Shown: positions 9,135-33,607, counted from the first letter of the stretch. The stretch: 56,644 bases of DNA from a virus (IMGVR_UViG_3300043080_000590:322386-379029), one strand, 5' to 3'. Notes: a model not told the origin generated them from the letters alone. Made by a program: numbers and translations.

Positions 9135-9926
9135 ATGGCTAAGATAGAGAACGATAAATATTATACACCTGATGATTTAGCAAAATACTGTGTAGAAAAA
9201 GCAAATGAAATAATAGGTGTTGATAATATAATTAGTTATATAGAACCGTCAGCAGGTGCAGGAGCGTTTATTAAATATTTTAATAAAGATTATTTAGCAA
9301 TAGATATTCTTCCTGAACACGAAAGAGTTATTGAACAAGATTTTTTAATTTTAAATTTTTCTTACAAGAAAGGTAGAATGATAATAGGCAATCCTCCGTA
9401 TGGTAGAAATATGTCTTTAGCTCAAAAATTCTATAAGAAATCAATAGAGCTTGCAGATTATATAGCCTTTATATTACCTATTTCACAATTAAACAATACT
9501 AATTCTTTATATGAATTTGATTTGATTTATAGTGAGGATTTGGGAATAAGAACATATTCAAATATTGATTTACATTGTTGCTTTAATGTTTACAAAAGAC
9601 CTGAAAATGGTTTAAATAAAAAGAAAAGTAGTAAATTAAAAGATATAACTATTTATAGACAAGATAAAAAAGGTTATGAAGATTTAGATTTCGATATAAG
9701 AATGTGTTATTGGGGAAATGGTTGTGCAGGTAAGATACTAAAAGATAACGAACATTATTCTGCGGAGTATAAAATAAAAATAAATAATGATAAATTAAAA
9801 AAAGAAATAATAAATACTTTAAGTAATTTTGATTGGAAAAGTTATTTAAATTGTATTGCTGCGAGAAAGATACAGCAGTTTCATATTATAGATGTTTTAA
9901 AAAATAATATACCTGAAATAAAATAA
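9135..9926 (+). CDS. N6-adenine DNA methyltransferase (gamma-type motif order)
   Basis: IEPSAGAGAF followed by GNPPY. Confidence 0.85.
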   Translation: MAKIENDKYYTPDDLAKYCVEKANEIIGVDNIISYIEPSAGAGAFIKYFNKDYLAIDILPEHERVIEQDFLILNFSYKKGRMIIGNPPYGRNMSLAQKFYKKSIELADYIAFILPISQLNNTNSLYEFDLIYSEDLGIRTYSNIDLHCCFNVYKRPENGLNKKKSSKLKDITIYRQDKKGYEDLDFDIRMCYWGNGCAGKILKDNEHYSAEYKIKINNDKLKKEIINTLSNFDWKSYLNCIAARKIQQFHIIDVLKNNIPEIK

Positions 9927-9947
9927 GAGGCTTAAATGCCTCTTTTT
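9925..9947 (+). terminator. Intrinsic terminator
   Basis: AAGAGGC/GCCTCTT stem plus T run. Confidence 0.75.
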
Positions 9948-9984: not shown

Positions 9985-10211
9985 TGTTATTTTTTAATAC
10001 AGTAATATTGATACAAAAGTACTGTATGCCTACAATCACAAGTTGTAACCATTTACTTTCAAATATATTAACATCAATACCTTCTTTTATCCAAGTTATG
10101 TATTCTTTTAAAGTATTTACTTTCCAATATGTTAGTATCAATACTATTTTTGAATATCATAAATCGATTTGTAATAAGAATATTTACTTTCCAATATGTT
10201 AGTATCAATAC
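9985..10211 (-). CRISPR. CRISPR mini-array B: 3 clear and 1 degenerate 30-nt repeats, 3 spacers (37, 34, 36 nt)
   Basis: Repeat GTATTGATACTAACATATTGGAAAGTAAAT at 10182-10211 and 10115-10144; variant at 10051-10080; degenerate copy at 9985-10014 (19/30), leader-distal. Confidence 0.88.
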
Positions 10212-10452
10212 CCGTTTAGTATACAGTAGTATATTTTATTGATATTTCAAGTATCAAATCTGTCTACCTCCATTGAAAAGTTATTTTCAAACATTATTTT
10301 TTATTCATCATTTACTTTATTCTCACAAAAACATAAGTAAATAAAGTGTTTTCAAACTTTCTGTCTATCTCTTAGTAATTTTACATTATTATACATCGAC
10401 AGAATTTAAAAAACTAAAAAATAAAAAGTATTTATACTATAATATTGAATTT
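10212..10452 (-). promoter_or_regulatory. CRISPR leader, homologous to 32071-32309
   Basis: Collinear inverted copy of the region upstream of array A. Confidence 0.8.
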
Positions 10453-10586
10453 GGTGAGTGGTGGGCTTCTTAGGTCAAAGCGGTGCAAGTCTTAAAGTTC
10501 TATCGCAAGTATTGAACGATATGTGAAGTGAACTACCCTCACCTTTCGGACGGTAAATCGCCCGAAGTCACCAACTAAAGGTGCTT
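10453..10586 (-). ncRNA. Structured ncRNA copy B (tracrRNA-like)
   Basis: GC-rich multi-stem element with compensatory changes versus copy A; contains anti-repeat-like segments. Confidence 0.75.
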
Positions 10587-10618
10587 ATAAAAAATAGCTC
10601 TTAAAAACTTACAATATT

Positions 10619-10647
10619 ATAATAACATATTATTTTCTGTTTGTCAA
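10619..10647 (-). promoter_or_regulatory. Sigma-A-type promoter driving ncRNA B and array B
   Basis: TTGACA-17-TATTAT(AAT), same architecture as 31855-31883. Confidence 0.8.
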
Positions 10648-11575: not shown

Positions 11576-11908
11576 ATGAAATACAAACTAACAACTAAAG
11601 AATATATAACTTGGATAAAAAAAGATATAAAAAGATTATATTATATAATATGTTATTTTACTAAAGCATTGTTTAATGTAGATAAAAATATTTTACTAAG
11701 TAAAGATTTTAAAGTGGATAGTTATATTATTACTTTTCATTCTGACGATTATAACGGAGCTTGTTATGATGAAAGAAGATTTGATAATTTTAAAGATGCT
11801 TATGAACTTTACGAATTAAGTAAAAATCAAGAATGTAGAGAAGATTTTGTAAGATTGCATATTTCTATTGAATATATTGGAAACATAGAAATAGCAAGAT
11901 ATAAATAA
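11576..11908 (+). CDS. Hypothetical protein; 5' end nearly matches a spacer of array B
   Basis: RBS GAGG; 11591-11624 is 28/34 identical to the spacer at 10081-10114. Confidence 0.75.
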   Translation: MKYKLTTKEYITWIKKDIKRLYYIICYFTKALFNVDKNILLSKDFKVDSYIITFHSDDYNGACYDERRFDNFKDAYELYELSKNQECREDFVRLHISIEYIGNIEIARYK

Positions 11909-31165: not shown

Positions 31166-31858
31166 ATGGCAGAAGGAATAGTACATAAACATTTAAAACA
31201 ACAGGGTATGAAATGGATAAAAACCAAAGTTACTGATATTGTAGCAACAGAAATAAAGTATCGTAATATGTATTCTATTGCTGATGTTGGTGGTATAAAT
31301 TTAAAAAGAAAAGAAGTTAGAATCATTGAATGTAAAGCAAGTAGACAGGATTTTTTAAGAGATAAAAAATTGATGGATATAGATAAATCTTACTATAAGC
31401 ATTGTCATTATTTTTATATATTAAGTCCTGCCAACATAATAACAGTTAATGACATACCTAAAGAATATGGCTTATTGTGGCTTAATAATAAAGATGAAAT
31501 AGAACTAATACAAAAGCCTGTAAAGTATACAGGGAGATTAAAAACAATGTTTAATACTTCTTTAAAAAATATGGTTCGAGCTGAAACAAATACTTTAATA
31601 TATTATTTTGATAACCAAGAAAATAAAGATGAAACGAATGGTAAGTTTAGTAGACAAGCTGATATAATATATGCTGCTATTAGATGCTCAAAATGTAAAC
31701 ACGTAACAAAAGATTTAATACATAAAAATAATACTTCTTTAATTAAATGTAGTAATTGTAAAGAGCAGATAATTATAAAAGATACAAGCGTAAGGGAAAT
31801 AACAGGGTTTAATAAAACATTTATAGAAAAATTAGATAAATTGAAAGAAAATACTTGA
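31166..31858 (+). CDS. PD-(D/E)XK nuclease-like protein (MmcB-like) with C-terminal CxxC/CxxC
   Basis: IADV...IIECKASRQDFLRD...YFY...PKEYGLL; CSKC and CSNC. Confidence 0.6.
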   Translation: MAEGIVHKHLKQQGMKWIKTKVTDIVATEIKYRNMYSIADVGGINLKRKEVRIIECKASRQDFLRDKKLMDIDKSYYKHCHYFYILSPANIITVNDIPKEYGLLWLNNKDEIELIQKPVKYTGRLKTMFNTSLKNMVRAETNTLIYYFDNQENKDETNGKFSRQADIIYAAIRCSKCKHVTKDLIHKNNTSLIKCSNCKEQIIIKDTSVREITGFNKTFIEKLDKLKENT

Positions 31859-31883
31859 CAAATAAAGTCAAATATAGTATTAT
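31855..31883 (+). promoter_or_regulatory. Sigma-A-type promoter driving ncRNA A and array A
   Basis: TTGACA-17-TATTAT(AAT). Confidence 0.8.
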
Positions 31884-31913
31884 AATGTCATAAGATTTTT
31901 AGAAATATATAAC

Positions 31914-32070
31914 AAGCACCCTTGCTTTAGATTTTTCTAAAGTTATGTGTCTGGTGCTTCGGGCGATTTACCGTCCGAAAGGTGAGGGTAACTCATTTCA
32001 CATACAGTTCAACACTGCTGTAGAGTTTTAAGACTTGCACCGCTTTGACCTAAGAAGCCCACCACTCACC
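31914..32070 (+). ncRNA. Structured ncRNA copy A (tracrRNA-like)
   Basis: Stems AAGCACC/GGTGCTT, CGGGCG/CGTCCG (loop ATTTAC), GGTGAG/CTCACC, AACTC/GAGTT, TACAG/CTGTA; covaries with copy B. Confidence 0.78.
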
Positions 32071-32309
32071 AAATTCAATATATGGTATAAATACTTTTTA
32101 TTTTTTTAGTTTCTAATTTCTGTCGATGTGTGGTAATGTAAAATTGCTAAGAGATAGACAGAAGCTTTAAAAACACTTTATTTACTTGTGTTTTTTGTGA
32201 GAATAAAGTAAATGATGAATAAAAAATAATGTTTGAATTTAACTTTTCAATGAGTTCGACAGATTTAGTATTTCAAATACTAATAAAACATACTACTATA
32301 CACCGAACG
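32071..32309 (+). promoter_or_regulatory. CRISPR leader
   Basis: Non-coding, conserved with 10212-10452, abuts the first repeat. Confidence 0.8.
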
Positions 32310-32862
32310 GTATTGATACTGATATGTTGGAAAGTAAATTTTGGGAATGTAACAACAAATGCGTGTTCCTTACGTATTGATACTGATATGTTGGAAAGTA
32401 AATTCTTCCTGAGCTGCAACAATAGTTGCCCAGTTTTCAGTATTAATATTGATATATTGGAAAGTAAATAATGCCACTTTGATAAGTGCTGATGCTTTTT
32501 GTTAGTATTAATATTGATATATTGGAAAGTAAATCAGATAAAACCTTTTTTGTTTTTGATTCAATCTTTGGTATTAATATTGATATATTGGAAAGTAAAT
32601 GTCTGAGAACTAAAGATATTTCTAATCTCTGCATTACGTATTAATATTGATATATTGGAAAGTAAATTACCTCTAATTTGACCAAACTCTAAAGAATCTG
32701 TAGTATTAATATTGATATATTGGAAAGTAAATTCAATGAAATATATAAAATATGTTGGTGAATGTGAGTATTAATATTGATATATTGGAAAGTAAATGTT
32801 GTCAGGTAATGTTAAGAGTACACTCAATGTTAGTATTGATACTGATATGTTGGGAAGTAAAT
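32310..32862 (+). CRISPR. CRISPR array A: 9 x 30-nt repeats, 8 spacers (34-37 nt)
   Basis: GTATTAATATTGATATATTGGAAAGTAAAT x6; variant GTATTGATACTGATATGTTGGAAAGTAAAT at repeats 1, 2 and 9 (repeat 9 has one extra mismatch). Confidence 0.97.
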
Positions 32863-32890
32863 AAGCAATTTGAGTTTGATATTAATACAT

Positions 32891-32932
32891 TAAAATTACA
32901 ATTGTAACTTATTTTACGTTACAAATTTAAAA
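32891..32932. repeat. 42-bp palindromic non-coding site, copy 1
   Basis: 36/42 identical, inverted, to 47360-47401. Confidence 0.6.
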
Positions 32933-32977
32933 TAACTTAAATTCTAAAAATCTTATAATATTAAAAAGGGAGTATTT

Positions 32978-33607
32978 TTATACTCCCTTTAATATTAAAT
33001 ATTTATTTTCTTCTAAGCAGGTTTTGCATAATTCTTTTAATTTTAAAATATTATCATATAAAATATTGTTTATAAAGTTATCTCCTATTTTTCCTTTGAG
33101 CTTACACAGAACAACATCTTTATTCATAAATAAATATTTATTTTCATCATTTATAATACTTGTCCTTTTAAAATAATTATACTTTCTTGGGCTTTCATTT
33201 TCATTATGAATTATTACATTACTATGCTTATTCCATACATTAGTGTCATTGTCAGAATATATTTCAGCCATTATCCAATCATTATTCCAGTTATCTATTA
33301 AATAATTTATTTCTTCTTTTAATTTTTCTATATCTTCTTTATTTAAAATTAAATTATTTTCAAATTGATTTATTATTTTAAATTTGCTGCCTACATCTTT
33401 TAAATTTGTTAATCCTATTCTATCACCTGTATGTTCAATGTTAAACCAAAGCGTGTCTTTTAATAAATAAATAGTAGAATAATCAAATTCAAAATATTTA
33501 AAATATTTATTTTCGATATAATTATAAAGTTTACCCAGTTCTTGCAATACATCTTCTTTATCAACATTTTTAATAAGTAAATTATAAATATCTTCGTATA
33601 ATTGCAT
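32978..33607 (-). CDS. Hypothetical protein
   Basis: 209-aa ORF with RBS and a terminator hairpin at 32963-32990. Confidence 0.65.
   Translation of the reverse strand: MQLYEDIYNLLIKNVDKEDVLQELGKLYNYIENKYFKYFEFDYSTIYLLKDTLWFNIEHTGDRIGLTNLKDVGSKFKIINQFENNLILNKEDIEKLKEEINYLIDNWNNDWIMAEIYSDNDTNVWNKHSNVIIHNENESPRKYNYFKRTSIINDENKYLFMNKDVVLCKLKGKIGDNFINNILYDNILKLKELCKTCLEENKYLILKGV

What the first reader, a model, noticed from the sequence alone, without database searches (positions are those of the whole stretch)
31855..32862. Duplicated promoter + tracrRNA-like structured RNA + leader + CRISPR cassette with no cas gene
Seen: the roughly 450-bp unit upstream of array A recurs inverted at 10212-10647 upstream of array B. 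It has a conserved TTGACA-17-TATTAT promoter and a GC-rich folded element. Two stems show compensatory changes between copies (AACTC/GAGTT vs AGTTC/GAACT; TACAG/CTGTA vs TATCG/CGATA), stem 1 keeps its arms while its loop changes length, and a G.U pair fixes the orientation as sense with the array. Two segments are complementary to the repeat: the invariant hairpin loop ATTTAC (31966-71) matches the repeat 3' end GTAAAT, and ATTTCACATACAGTTCAACAC (copy A) or ACTTCACATATCGTTCAATAC (copy B) is a gapped anti-repeat of GTATTGATACTGATATGTTGGAAAG. Known: type V tracrRNAs (Cas12f, Cas12k) pair with the repeat through two separate segments, one forming a pseudoknot, whereas type I-B needs no tracrRNA. 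Inference: a portable guide cassette for a compact type V/TnpB-derived effector encoded elsewhere (phage or host), or a new RNA that modulates host Cas6/Cascade use of the array. Caveat: the second anti-repeat is partly sequestered in its own stem.
Basis: partly seen in the sequence, partly recalled or inferred. Interest (0 to 1): 0.92.

Follow-up and report, generated by a model that had tools for sequence, protein, structure and literature searches.

The report
Orphan Cas12f tracrRNA-array cassettes in phage
A huge gut phage carries three copies of a self-contained unit (promoter, helper RNA, CRISPR array) whose folded RNA is the tracrRNA of a miniature Cas12f nuclease, but the nuclease gene is missing from the 224 kb in hand, so the guides probably work with an enzyme encoded elsewhere.

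Summary
A promoter, GC-rich folded RNA, leader and array unit occurs twice in the window and a third time elsewhere in the same 224-kb phage contig. Helices P2, P4 and P5 show compensatory changes. Rfam has no match.

Its internal 'gapped anti-repeat' is no better than chance. The real anti-repeat is the 21-22 nt directly 3' of the scaffold (window 32074-32094). It pairs with repeat nt 1-22 over about 20 bp (p about 0.001-0.01), and a U-tract follows it. The P2 loop (AUUUAC) pairs with the last six repeat bases next to the spacer.

A covariance model of the RNA hits RNAs that flank cas12f genes on two unrelated metagenomic contigs (E 2e-7, 5e-4, 0.04). There, loop AUUUGA faces repeat end UCAAAC, a change on both sides.

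An unrelated 151-kb phage with the same RNA encodes an intact 456-aa Cas12f1 (V-U3 type; closest solved structure CnCas12f1, 8HR5).

This phage contig has only IS-type TnpBs that carry their own omega RNAs.

So these are type V-F1 tracrRNA-array cassettes, portable and unlinked from their effector.

The scan had flagged this RNA before, in this genome and in one other, with its function left unknown.

The parts
31855..31883 (+). Cassette A promoter, TTGACA-17-TATTAT
   Evidence: 11/12 consensus match, the best site in the region. Conserved in copies B and C, in L071 and in G001.
31914..32070 (+). Cassette A tracrRNA scaffold: P1 31915-31958 (with insert hairpin), P2 31959-31978 (loop AUUUAC at 31966-31971), P3 31981-31989/32061-32070, P4 31990-31994/32023-32027, P5 32003-32008/32017-32022
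   Evidence: Fold z = -4.6. Compensatory changes in P2, P4 and P5. Coordinates. Model R1 hits RNAs beside cas12f genes.
32074..32094 (+). Cassette A anti-repeat (UUCAAUAUAUGGUAUAAAUAC), pairs with repeat nt 1-22
   Evidence: About 20 bp. RNAduplex gives -14 to -17 kcal/mol, against -5.9 +/- 2.3 for random genome 30-mers (p 0.001-0.004). RNAcofold keeps the scaffold folded and forms this duplex. Also seen in the leader MFE.
32095..32107 (+). U-tract UUUUUAUUUUUUU after the anti-repeat; possible partial stop that would give a discrete tracrRNA
   Evidence: Read directly from the sequence. Conserved in A, B, C and L071. Function inferred; the simple terminator scan does not call it.
32108..32309 (+). 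Leader, with hairpin H2 (32180-32213, AUUUACUU/AAGUAAAU, holding a copy of the repeat's last 9 nt) and palindrome H3 (32265-32283, changed on both arms in copy B)
   Evidence: The H2 core is the only leader part kept in G001.
32310..32862 (+). Array A: nine 30-nt repeats (two variants), eight spacers of 34-37 nt
   Evidence: The array is identical in two other samples.
32965..32990 (.). Hairpin terminator that closes cassette A
10619..10647 (-). Cassette B promoter, TTGACA-17-TATTAT with TG before the -10 box
10453..10586 (-). Cassette B tracrRNA scaffold (short P1; P2 loop at 10558-10553)
10428..10449 (-). Cassette B anti-repeat (UUCAAUAUUAUAGUAUAAAUAC)
   Evidence: RNAduplex with the B repeat gives -15.5 kcal/mol, p 0.001. 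Cofold ddG is -13.8.
10051..10211 (-). Array B: three repeats and two spacers, followed by a decayed unit. Terminator at 9925-9944.

Best explanation
Each unit is a self-contained type V-F1 (Cas12f1, formerly V-U3) guide-RNA cassette.

A host-type sigma-70 promoter drives a tracrRNA. The tracrRNA has an AU-rich 5' tail, a scaffold of about 135-157 nt (P1-P5) and a 21-22 nt 3' anti-repeat that ends in a U-tract. Read-through continues into a leader of about 200 nt and a short CRISPR array.

The anti-repeat pairs with nt 1-22 of each 30-nt repeat. The P2 hairpin loop pairs with the last 6 nt of the repeat, next to the spacer, to form the pseudoknot typical of Cas12f/TnpB guide RNAs. A Cas12f1 dimer would then bind this RNA and cut DNA that matches the spacer beside a 5' PAM.

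The phage aims the guides at its own kin. The effector gene is not on the 224-kb contig. It is either on the unassembled part of the genome or supplied in trans by the host or a co-resident element.

Shown here: the cassette anatomy, the complementarities, the homology to RNAs next to cas12f genes, and a Cas12f1 gene in the second phage that carries the RNA.
Inferred: the RNA ends, processing, effector binding and cleavage.
For: 1. Anti-repeat. The tail 32074-32094 pairs with repeat nt 1-22 over about 20 bp. For the first repeats of arrays A, B and L071, RNAduplex gives -14 to -17 kcal/mol against -5.5 +/- 2.3 for 3000 random 30-mers of the genome (p 0.0007-0.004); array C gives p 0.012, and some decayed later repeats give p 0.007-0.13. 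RNAcofold leaves the scaffold intact (ddG -10.5 to -13.8).

2. Pseudoknot pairing changes on both sides. G000: loop AUUUAC with repeat end GUAAAU. L071: loop AUUUGC with GUAAAU (a G.U pair). G001: loop AUUUGC with remnant repeat end GCAAAAU (a G-C pair). L113: loop AUUUGA with repeat end UCAAAC.

3. Homology. Model R1, built only from the phage copies, hits L113:1354-1421 (32.8 bits, E 2.4e-7) directly upstream of a mini-array and a cas12f gene. It hits L113:2973-3051 (E 5e-4) just downstream of that gene, before a second array, and L112:4386-4494 (E 0.04) downstream of another cas12f. All share the P2 hairpin, AAAGGUGAG...CUCAC(C)AAAA, and then an anti-repeat.

4. Effector. G001, a phage unrelated at protein level (5 of 109 ORFs match), carries the same promoter and RNA. 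It also encodes an intact 456-aa protein that matches the PADLOC Cas12f/V-U3 models over their full length (3e-116, 2e-112), CnCas12f1 8HR5 (1.7e-96) and RhCas12f1 9NZP (6.5e-85). All three RuvC motifs are present. No GC-rich RNA and no array lies next to the gene.

5. Published V-U3 biology fits. These systems occur in Clostridia and Bacilli and lack adaptation genes; the tracrRNA region lies next to the array; PAMs are 5' C- or T-rich (PMC7229846). SpCas12f1 uses a 156-nt tracrRNA, a 32-nt repeat part, a pseudoknot and a repeat:anti-repeat stem (PMC12255294).

6. PAM. A kin protospacer of an L071 spacer has the 5' flank CCT.

7. RNA library. A metatranscriptome contig bridges the scaffold 3' end, anti-repeat, U-tract and leader (32059-32260, exact). 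This is weak, because DNA can be present in such a library.
Against: - No V-U3-type cas12f was found in the 224-kb contig. Only IS605-type TnpBs with their own omega RNAs and element ends are present.
- The repeat is 30 nt and ends in GTAAAT, like clostridial type I-B repeats (from my own knowledge). The CCT flank equally fits the C. difficile I-B PAM CCW (PMC4556805).
- About 215 nt separate the anti-repeat from the first repeat, more than in L113.
- Homology rests on a model built from five close sequences, with roughly calibrated E-values. The matches cover only the P1-P3 core.
- The G001 copy has only one decayed repeat, so that cassette may be dying.
- No data on RNA ends, binding or cleavage.
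Confidence: 0.8

Rival explanations
1. Cis-acting 5' domain of a type I-B pre-crRNA. The arrays are processed by host Cas6b and used by host Cascade. The folded RNA only stabilises the transcript, prevents termination or helps load it, and the anti-repeat masks the first repeat.
For: The 30-nt repeat ends in GTAAAT and the spacers are 34-37 nt. The CCT flank matches the C. difficile I-B PAM CCW (PMC4556805). The RNA and leader lie on one contig of an RNA library. A weak boxA-like motif is in the leader. No effector is found on the contig.
Against: The RNA is homologous to RNAs that flank cas12f genes. The second phage with this RNA has a Cas12f1 gene and no array. Type I systems need no anti-repeat. 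The loop pairing with the repeat end changes on both sides. Rfam gives no match to put, EAR or any other family.
Confidence: 0.08
2. Counter-defence decoy. The phage RNA is a tracrRNA mimic that soaks up or re-programmes a host Cas12f1, in the way phage-borne sgRNAs subvert Cas9. The arrays are secondary.
For: G001 keeps the promoter and RNA with no working array. Phage sgRNA-like inhibitors of Cas9 and phage crRNA-like RNAs have been reported (10.64898/2026.06.01.729453; 10.1101/2024.10.29.618823). No effector is found on the G000 contig.
Against: G001 encodes its own intact Cas12f1. G000 keeps three arrays with 18 different spacers. One of them, and one spacer of the related L071 array, nearly match genes of the G000 genome, which fits offensive use.
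Confidence: 0.07
3. The phage's own IS605-type TnpB proteins use the cassettes as alternative guides (a TranC-like dual use).
For: Two to three tnpB copies lie on the contig. One 11-mer (GGGUAGUUCAC) is shared between copy B and the 3' end of the TnpB2 omega RNA.
Against: Each TnpB has its own omega RNA and element ends. Two copies are frameshifted. R1 finds no omega-like match. The 11-mer is not significant after eight tests (p 0.02). The V-U3 model scores these proteins at only 2e-17, against 2e-112 for the G001 protein.
Confidence: 0.04

Closest known systems
Type V-F1 (formerly V-U3) CRISPR-Cas12f1 of Clostridia and Bacilli: CnCas12f1 (PDB 8HR5), RhCas12f1 (9NZP), SpCas12f1, AsCas12f1 (PMC7229846, PMC12255294)
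   Same: The tracrRNA is about 150-200 nt and lies next to, and co-oriented with, a small array. It has a 3' anti-repeat stem and a pseudoknot that involves the repeat end next to the guide. There are no adaptation genes. A C-rich 5' flank fits. The core P2-GGUGAG...CUCACC-AAAA-anti-repeat is shared with RNAs beside cas12f genes.
   Different: The cassettes are unlinked from any cas12f gene, triplicated at unrelated sites and shared between unrelated phages. The scaffold carries an extra 70-nt P4-P5 insertion. The repeat is 30 nt and looks like type I-B. A leader of about 215 nt separates the anti-repeat from the array.
Cas-less CRISPR arrays of huge phages and C. difficile prophages (Al-Shayeb et al. 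2020, from memory; PMC4556805)
   Same: Phage-borne arrays without cas genes, aimed at competing phages and thought to borrow an effector.
   Different: Those arrays are read as users of host type I or other systems and carry no tracrRNA. Here the cassette brings its own tracrRNA.
TnpB omega RNA / TranC transposon-CRISPR intermediates (PDB 9JFO LaTranC; 8BF8 TnpB)
   Same: The guide architecture is the same: scaffold, last stem, pseudoknot strand and guide. The core is conserved between Cas12f sgRNAs and TnpB reRNA (PMC12255294).
   Different: The RNA is split into tracrRNA and crRNA and is not at the 3' end of a tnpB gene. It has no sequence or model similarity to the omega RNAs in this genome.
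Phage-encoded sgRNA-like and crRNA-like RNAs (vsgRNA, 10.64898/2026.06.01.729453; viral crlRNA, 10.1101/2024.10.29.618823)
   Same: Phage-borne guide-type RNAs that work with an effector encoded elsewhere.
   Different: Those act on Cas9, or as repeat mimics, to inhibit or re-programme host immunity. Here full arrays with kin-targeting spacers point to offensive use.

Membership tests
Type V-F1 (V-U3) Cas12f1 tracrRNA-crRNA module | Non-coding RNA gene next to the array and co-oriented with it | tested here: met
   Promoter, RNA, leader and array lie on one strand, with no called terminator before the array.
Type V-F1 (V-U3) Cas12f1 tracrRNA-crRNA module | Anti-repeat at the 3' end of the scaffold, complementary to the repeat | tested here: met
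   About 20 bp; p 0.0007-0.004 for the first repeats of arrays A, B and L071, 0.012 for C, against random genome 30-mers. Cofold ddG is -10.5 to -13.8 kcal/mol.
Type V-F1 (V-U3) Cas12f1 tracrRNA-crRNA module | Pseudoknot between a scaffold loop and the repeat bases next to the guide | tested here: met
   Loop and repeat-end pairs: AUUUAC/GUAAAU, AUUUGC/GUAAAU (G.U), AUUUGC/GCAAAAU, AUUUGA/UCAAAC. This is predicted pairing only, from few lineages.
Type V-F1 (V-U3) Cas12f1 tracrRNA-crRNA module | Scaffold homologous to tracrRNAs that sit beside cas12f1 genes | tested here: met
   R1 hits at L113 (E 2.4e-7 and 5e-4) and L112 (E 0.04). Each lies between a cas12f gene and a repeat array. E-values are rough.
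Type V-F1 (V-U3) Cas12f1 tracrRNA-crRNA module | Cognate Cas12f1 gene in the same genome | tested here: inconclusive
   G001: present. G000: absent from 224 kb. However, the contig ends inside an IS copy, and identical proteins sit on a 502,690-bp contig.
Type V-F1 (V-U3) Cas12f1 tracrRNA-crRNA module | 5' C- or T-rich PAM | tested here: inconclusive
   One kin protospacer has CCT. One self near-match has CTA with seed mismatches.
Type V-F1 (V-U3) Cas12f1 tracrRNA-crRNA module | Discrete tracrRNA, processed crRNA and RNP activity | not testable with these tools
   Only assembled contigs of one RNA library were available.
Type I-B array served by host Cas6b/Cascade | No tracrRNA; repeat cut by Cas6 to leave an 8-nt 5' handle; Cas6/Cascade genes in the host | tested here: inconclusive
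   The repeat looks like I-B, and the phage has no Cas6 or Cas1. The host genome could not be reached. The tracrRNA homology argues against this family.
TnpB omega RNA (IS200/IS605) | Scaffold overlaps the 3' end of tnpB and ends at the element's right end, with the guide directly after it | tested here: not met
   The cassettes are far from the tnpB genes. The genome's omega RNAs are different sequences.
Processive antitermination RNAs (put, EAR) | Match to the family model; acts on RNA polymerase in cis | tested here: not met
   No Rfam match even at E <= 10. Function was not tested.

The most novel reading that the evidence does not exclude
The huge phage encodes no Cas12f of its own. It carries only portable 'guide-only' cassettes (tracrRNA plus array) that plug into a Cas12f1 made by its host or by a co-resident phage. 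The cassettes move between unrelated phages as independent modules, so guide RNAs and nuclease would be inherited separately. This would be a new form of CRISPR parasitism and would explain some 'cas-less' arrays of huge phages.
Probability: 0.3. Interest if true: 0.8.

Novelty: new variant of a known kind. Interest (0 to 1): 0.62.

Why it matters
Arrays without cas genes in huge phages are usually assumed to borrow host type I machinery. Here the array brings its own tracrRNA, which identifies the partner as a miniature Cas12f1 and shows that tracrRNA plus array can travel as one module, separate from the nuclease.

This gives a function to an RNA that three earlier reports of this scan left unexplained. 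It also gives a simple rule for reading other cas-less arrays: look for a scaffold followed by an anti-repeat upstream of the leader.

The cassette offers a natural, compact Cas12f guide scaffold with an unusual 30-nt repeat and an extra P4-P5 domain that can be tested directly.

Tried and rejected
- Rfam, at gathering thresholds and at E <= 10: nothing.
- blastn of the unit and of the array against the phage and plasmid collections: no useful match.
- Exact or degenerate pattern scans. The viral collection gave only L015/G001 and L071.
An earlier shuffle test had looked better.
- Similarity to the omega RNAs: one 11-mer, not significant.
- TnpBs as effectors: judged unlikely.
- A boxA-like motif in the scaffold and leader: low information, 12 copies per genome.
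- Translating the array as a spurious ORF to find related arrays: no hits.
- A conserved 517-aa protein used to find kin phages: no loci.
- Neighbours of Dam methylase homologs: no R1 hits.
- Syntenic sites of the 230-aa gene in relatives: no cassette.
- The 1148-aa ORF of unknown function: no family and no Atlas neighbour. A RuvC-III motif scan found no further candidate.
- RNA run X1: only 14% of the words, held as contigs. The flanking genes had no cover, which cannot be used as evidence. No ends or strand can be read.
- No complex-prediction job was run.

Full report
**What is there.** The window is the minus strand of G000:72349-128992, part of a 224,405-bp IMG/VR phage contig with 26% GC that CheckV rates 92% complete.

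From the -35 box to the first repeat, window 31855-32340 (+) and 10647-10190 (-) align at 87% identity. A third copy lies at G000:172009-172900.

Each copy is one transcription unit. It starts with a near-consensus TTGACA-17-TATTAT promoter, continues through a GC-rich RNA, an AT-rich leader and an array of 3-9 repeats, and ends at a hairpin terminator. No terminator is called before the array. Rfam has no match at any threshold.

**Structure.** Five distinct sequences are available. They are copies A, B and C, plus L071/L077 from a strain whose Dam methylase is 95% identical, and L015/G001 from a 151-kb phage.

RNAalifold gives P1 (with a variable insert), P2 (7-9 bp with a 6-nt loop), a 9-bp closing helix P3, and a P4-P5 hairpin. 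Five pairs change on both sides. 97% of cells are paired, against 37-49% when partners are slid. P6 is not supported. Copy A folds with z = -4.6. Conserved G.U pairs put the RNA on the array strand.

Folding the leader showed something else. The 21-22 nt directly 3' of P3 (window 32074-32094; 10449-10428 in copy B) pair with nt 1-22 of the repeat. RNAduplex gives -12 to -17 kcal/mol for the cognate repeats, against -5.5 +/- 2.3 for 3000 random 30-mers. The first repeats of arrays A, B and L071 give p 0.0007-0.004, array C gives 0.012, and some decayed later repeats give up to 0.13. RNAcofold keeps the scaffold folded, forms this 20-bp duplex, and leaves AAAGUAAAU single-stranded next to the spacer. 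The P2 loop AUUUAC is complementary to the last six of those bases. A U-tract (32095-32107) follows the anti-repeat.

A scaffold, a 3' anti-repeat stem and a pseudoknot beside the guide is the published layout of Cas12f1 guide RNAs. For example, SpCas12f1 uses a 156-nt tracrRNA, a 32-nt repeat part, a pseudoknot, and a stem 5 made of repeat and anti-repeat (PMC12255294).

**The effector.** I scanned 66 ORFs of 280-1600 aa and six further long ORFs on the contig. PADLOC and Pfam report only TnpB-type proteins.

These belong to ordinary IS elements. Each has its own GC-rich omega RNA, a left-end hairpin and defined right ends. Two are frameshifted in homopolymers, and one copy is cut by the contig end. 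Model R1 finds nothing like them, and a shared 11-mer is not significant. Cas6 and Cas1 are absent.

G001 shares almost no proteins with G000 (5 of 109 ORFs) and has no array. It does keep the promoter, the RNA, part of the leader and one decayed repeat. It also encodes an intact 456-aa protein. That protein matches the PADLOC Cas12f and V-U3 models end to end (3e-116, 2e-112). Its closest solved structures are CnCas12f1 8HR5 (1.7e-96) and RhCas12f1 9NZP (6.5e-85), far above TnpB at 1e-8. No structured RNA or array lies beside that gene. The RNA 28 kb away is the only candidate partner in G001.

**Homology test.** I took the two closest library representatives of the G001 protein (50% and 48% identity), fetched their contigs and searched them with R1, which was built only from the phage copies.

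- L113 has a hit at 1354-1421 (32.8 bits, E 2.4e-7). It is followed by three 36-nt repeats and then the cas12f gene.
- L113 has a second hit just after the gene (E 5e-4), before a second array.
- L112 has a weaker hit after its cas12f gene (E 0.04), again before repeats.

These shorter RNAs keep the P2 hairpin, AAGGUGAGGG...CCACUCACC, AAAA, and then an anti-repeat (ACCUAUGUA against UACAUAGGU).

In L113 the loop is AUUUGA and the repeat ends UCAAAC. In G000 the pair is AUUUAC/GUAAAU. In L071 it is AUUUGC/GUAAAU, a G.U pair. In G001 it is AUUUGC/GCAAAAU.

**Other points.**
- The L071 strain has a spacer that matches G000 at 21/23 positions, with 5' flank CCT. Spacer 2 of array B nearly matches a gene 1.5 kb away, with flank CTA and seed mismatches. 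CCT fits the C-rich PAMs of V-U3 nucleases (PMC7229846), but it also fits the C. difficile I-B PAM CCW (PMC4556805).
- One gut metatranscriptome holds two small contigs on the RNA. One bridges the scaffold 3' end, anti-repeat, U-tract and leader up to 32260. This is weak, because DNA may be present and contigs show no ends.
- Portability is supported. The three sites are unrelated. The site of cassette A is empty in syntenic relatives and holds an IS607 in another relative. A recombinant that joins the RNA of B to the array of C exists in another sample.

**Verdict.** The element is a Cas12f1 (type V-F1) tracrRNA-array cassette. What is new is the arrangement: three copies, unlinked from any cas12f gene on 224 kb, shared with an unrelated phage, and carrying an enlarged scaffold and a 30-nt repeat. 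The location of the nuclease is still open. Identical proteins occur on a 502,690-bp contig, so the true genome may be much larger than the piece in hand.

Earlier reports of this scan saw the same RNA (e1-1860366, e1-5372846, e1-1843188) and left its function open. Others described per-array tracrRNAs next to phage cas12f genes. I treated those as leads and tested the link myself on L113 and L112.

Noticed in passing
L075:1850-2900 (JGI 3300043081 contig); compare window 10453-10586 and G000:172383-172900: One sample holds a recombinant in which the copy-B RNA (next to the Dam methylase gene) is joined to the complete array C and the endolysin gene. This implies loss or rearrangement of about 54 kb by recombination between cassettes B and C.
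   Followed up: partly
G000:52150-53520, 144900-146500 and 223980-224405 (outside the window): Three IS200/IS605-type elements carry tnpB, omega RNA and end hairpins. Two tnpB genes are frameshifted in T4/A5 runs. The contig ends inside one copy, so the assembly probably broke at this repeat.
   Followed up: partly
window 31858-32978 versus L104, L105, L106: The insertion site of cassette A (between a 230-aa gene and a 209-aa gene) is empty in two syntenic relatives. A 301-kb relative has an IS607 there (serine recombinase plus a 495-aa TnpB). The site looks like a hotspot for mobile DNA.
   Followed up: partly
window 31166-31858: The 230-aa protein upstream of cassette A is 53% identical to gp692 of Bacillus phage G (497 kb). 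Identical copies of this protein and of the Dam methylase lie on a 502,690-bp contig. The 224-kb contig may be a fragment of a G-like megaphage that infects Bacillota.
   Followed up: no
G001:92285-96429 versus G000:140988-141341; G001:82878-82960 versus G000:53441-53521: Two phages with almost no shared proteins share several group I intron-like stretches (77-83% identity) and an omega-RNA fragment (94%), as well as the tracrRNA. They seem to exchange mobile RNA-type elements.
   Followed up: no
window 32180-32213 and 10342-10310: A leader hairpin AUUUACUU/AAGUAAAU holds a copy of the last 9 nt of the repeat. Its 5' arm repeats the P2 loop sequence. It is the only part of the leader kept in G001. 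Its role is unknown; it may be a decoy or a switch for the pseudoknot strand.
   Followed up: no
window 32265-32283 and 10257-10235: A palindrome about 25 nt upstream of the first repeat is changed on both arms between copies A and B (UUAGUAUUU/AAAUACUAA versus UUGAUACUU/AAAUAUCAA).
   Followed up: no
window 10081-10114 versus 11591-11624: Spacer 2 of array B matches a gene 1.5 kb away at 28/34 positions. The mismatches lie at the PAM-proximal end, and the flank is CTA, not CCN. This fits escape from self-targeting.
   Followed up: partly
L015:6139-6167 (+): In G001 a perfect consensus promoter (12/12) fires towards the tracrRNA gene from the opposite side, so the RNA there may be subject to antisense transcription.
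   Followed up: no
L112:2380-2800: Upstream of the cas12f homolog there is a GC-rich stretch of about 400 nt that ends in a tRNA-like T-arm and acceptor (GGGUUCAAGUCCCAC...). It may be a tmRNA or another structured RNA. Not examined.
   Followed up: no
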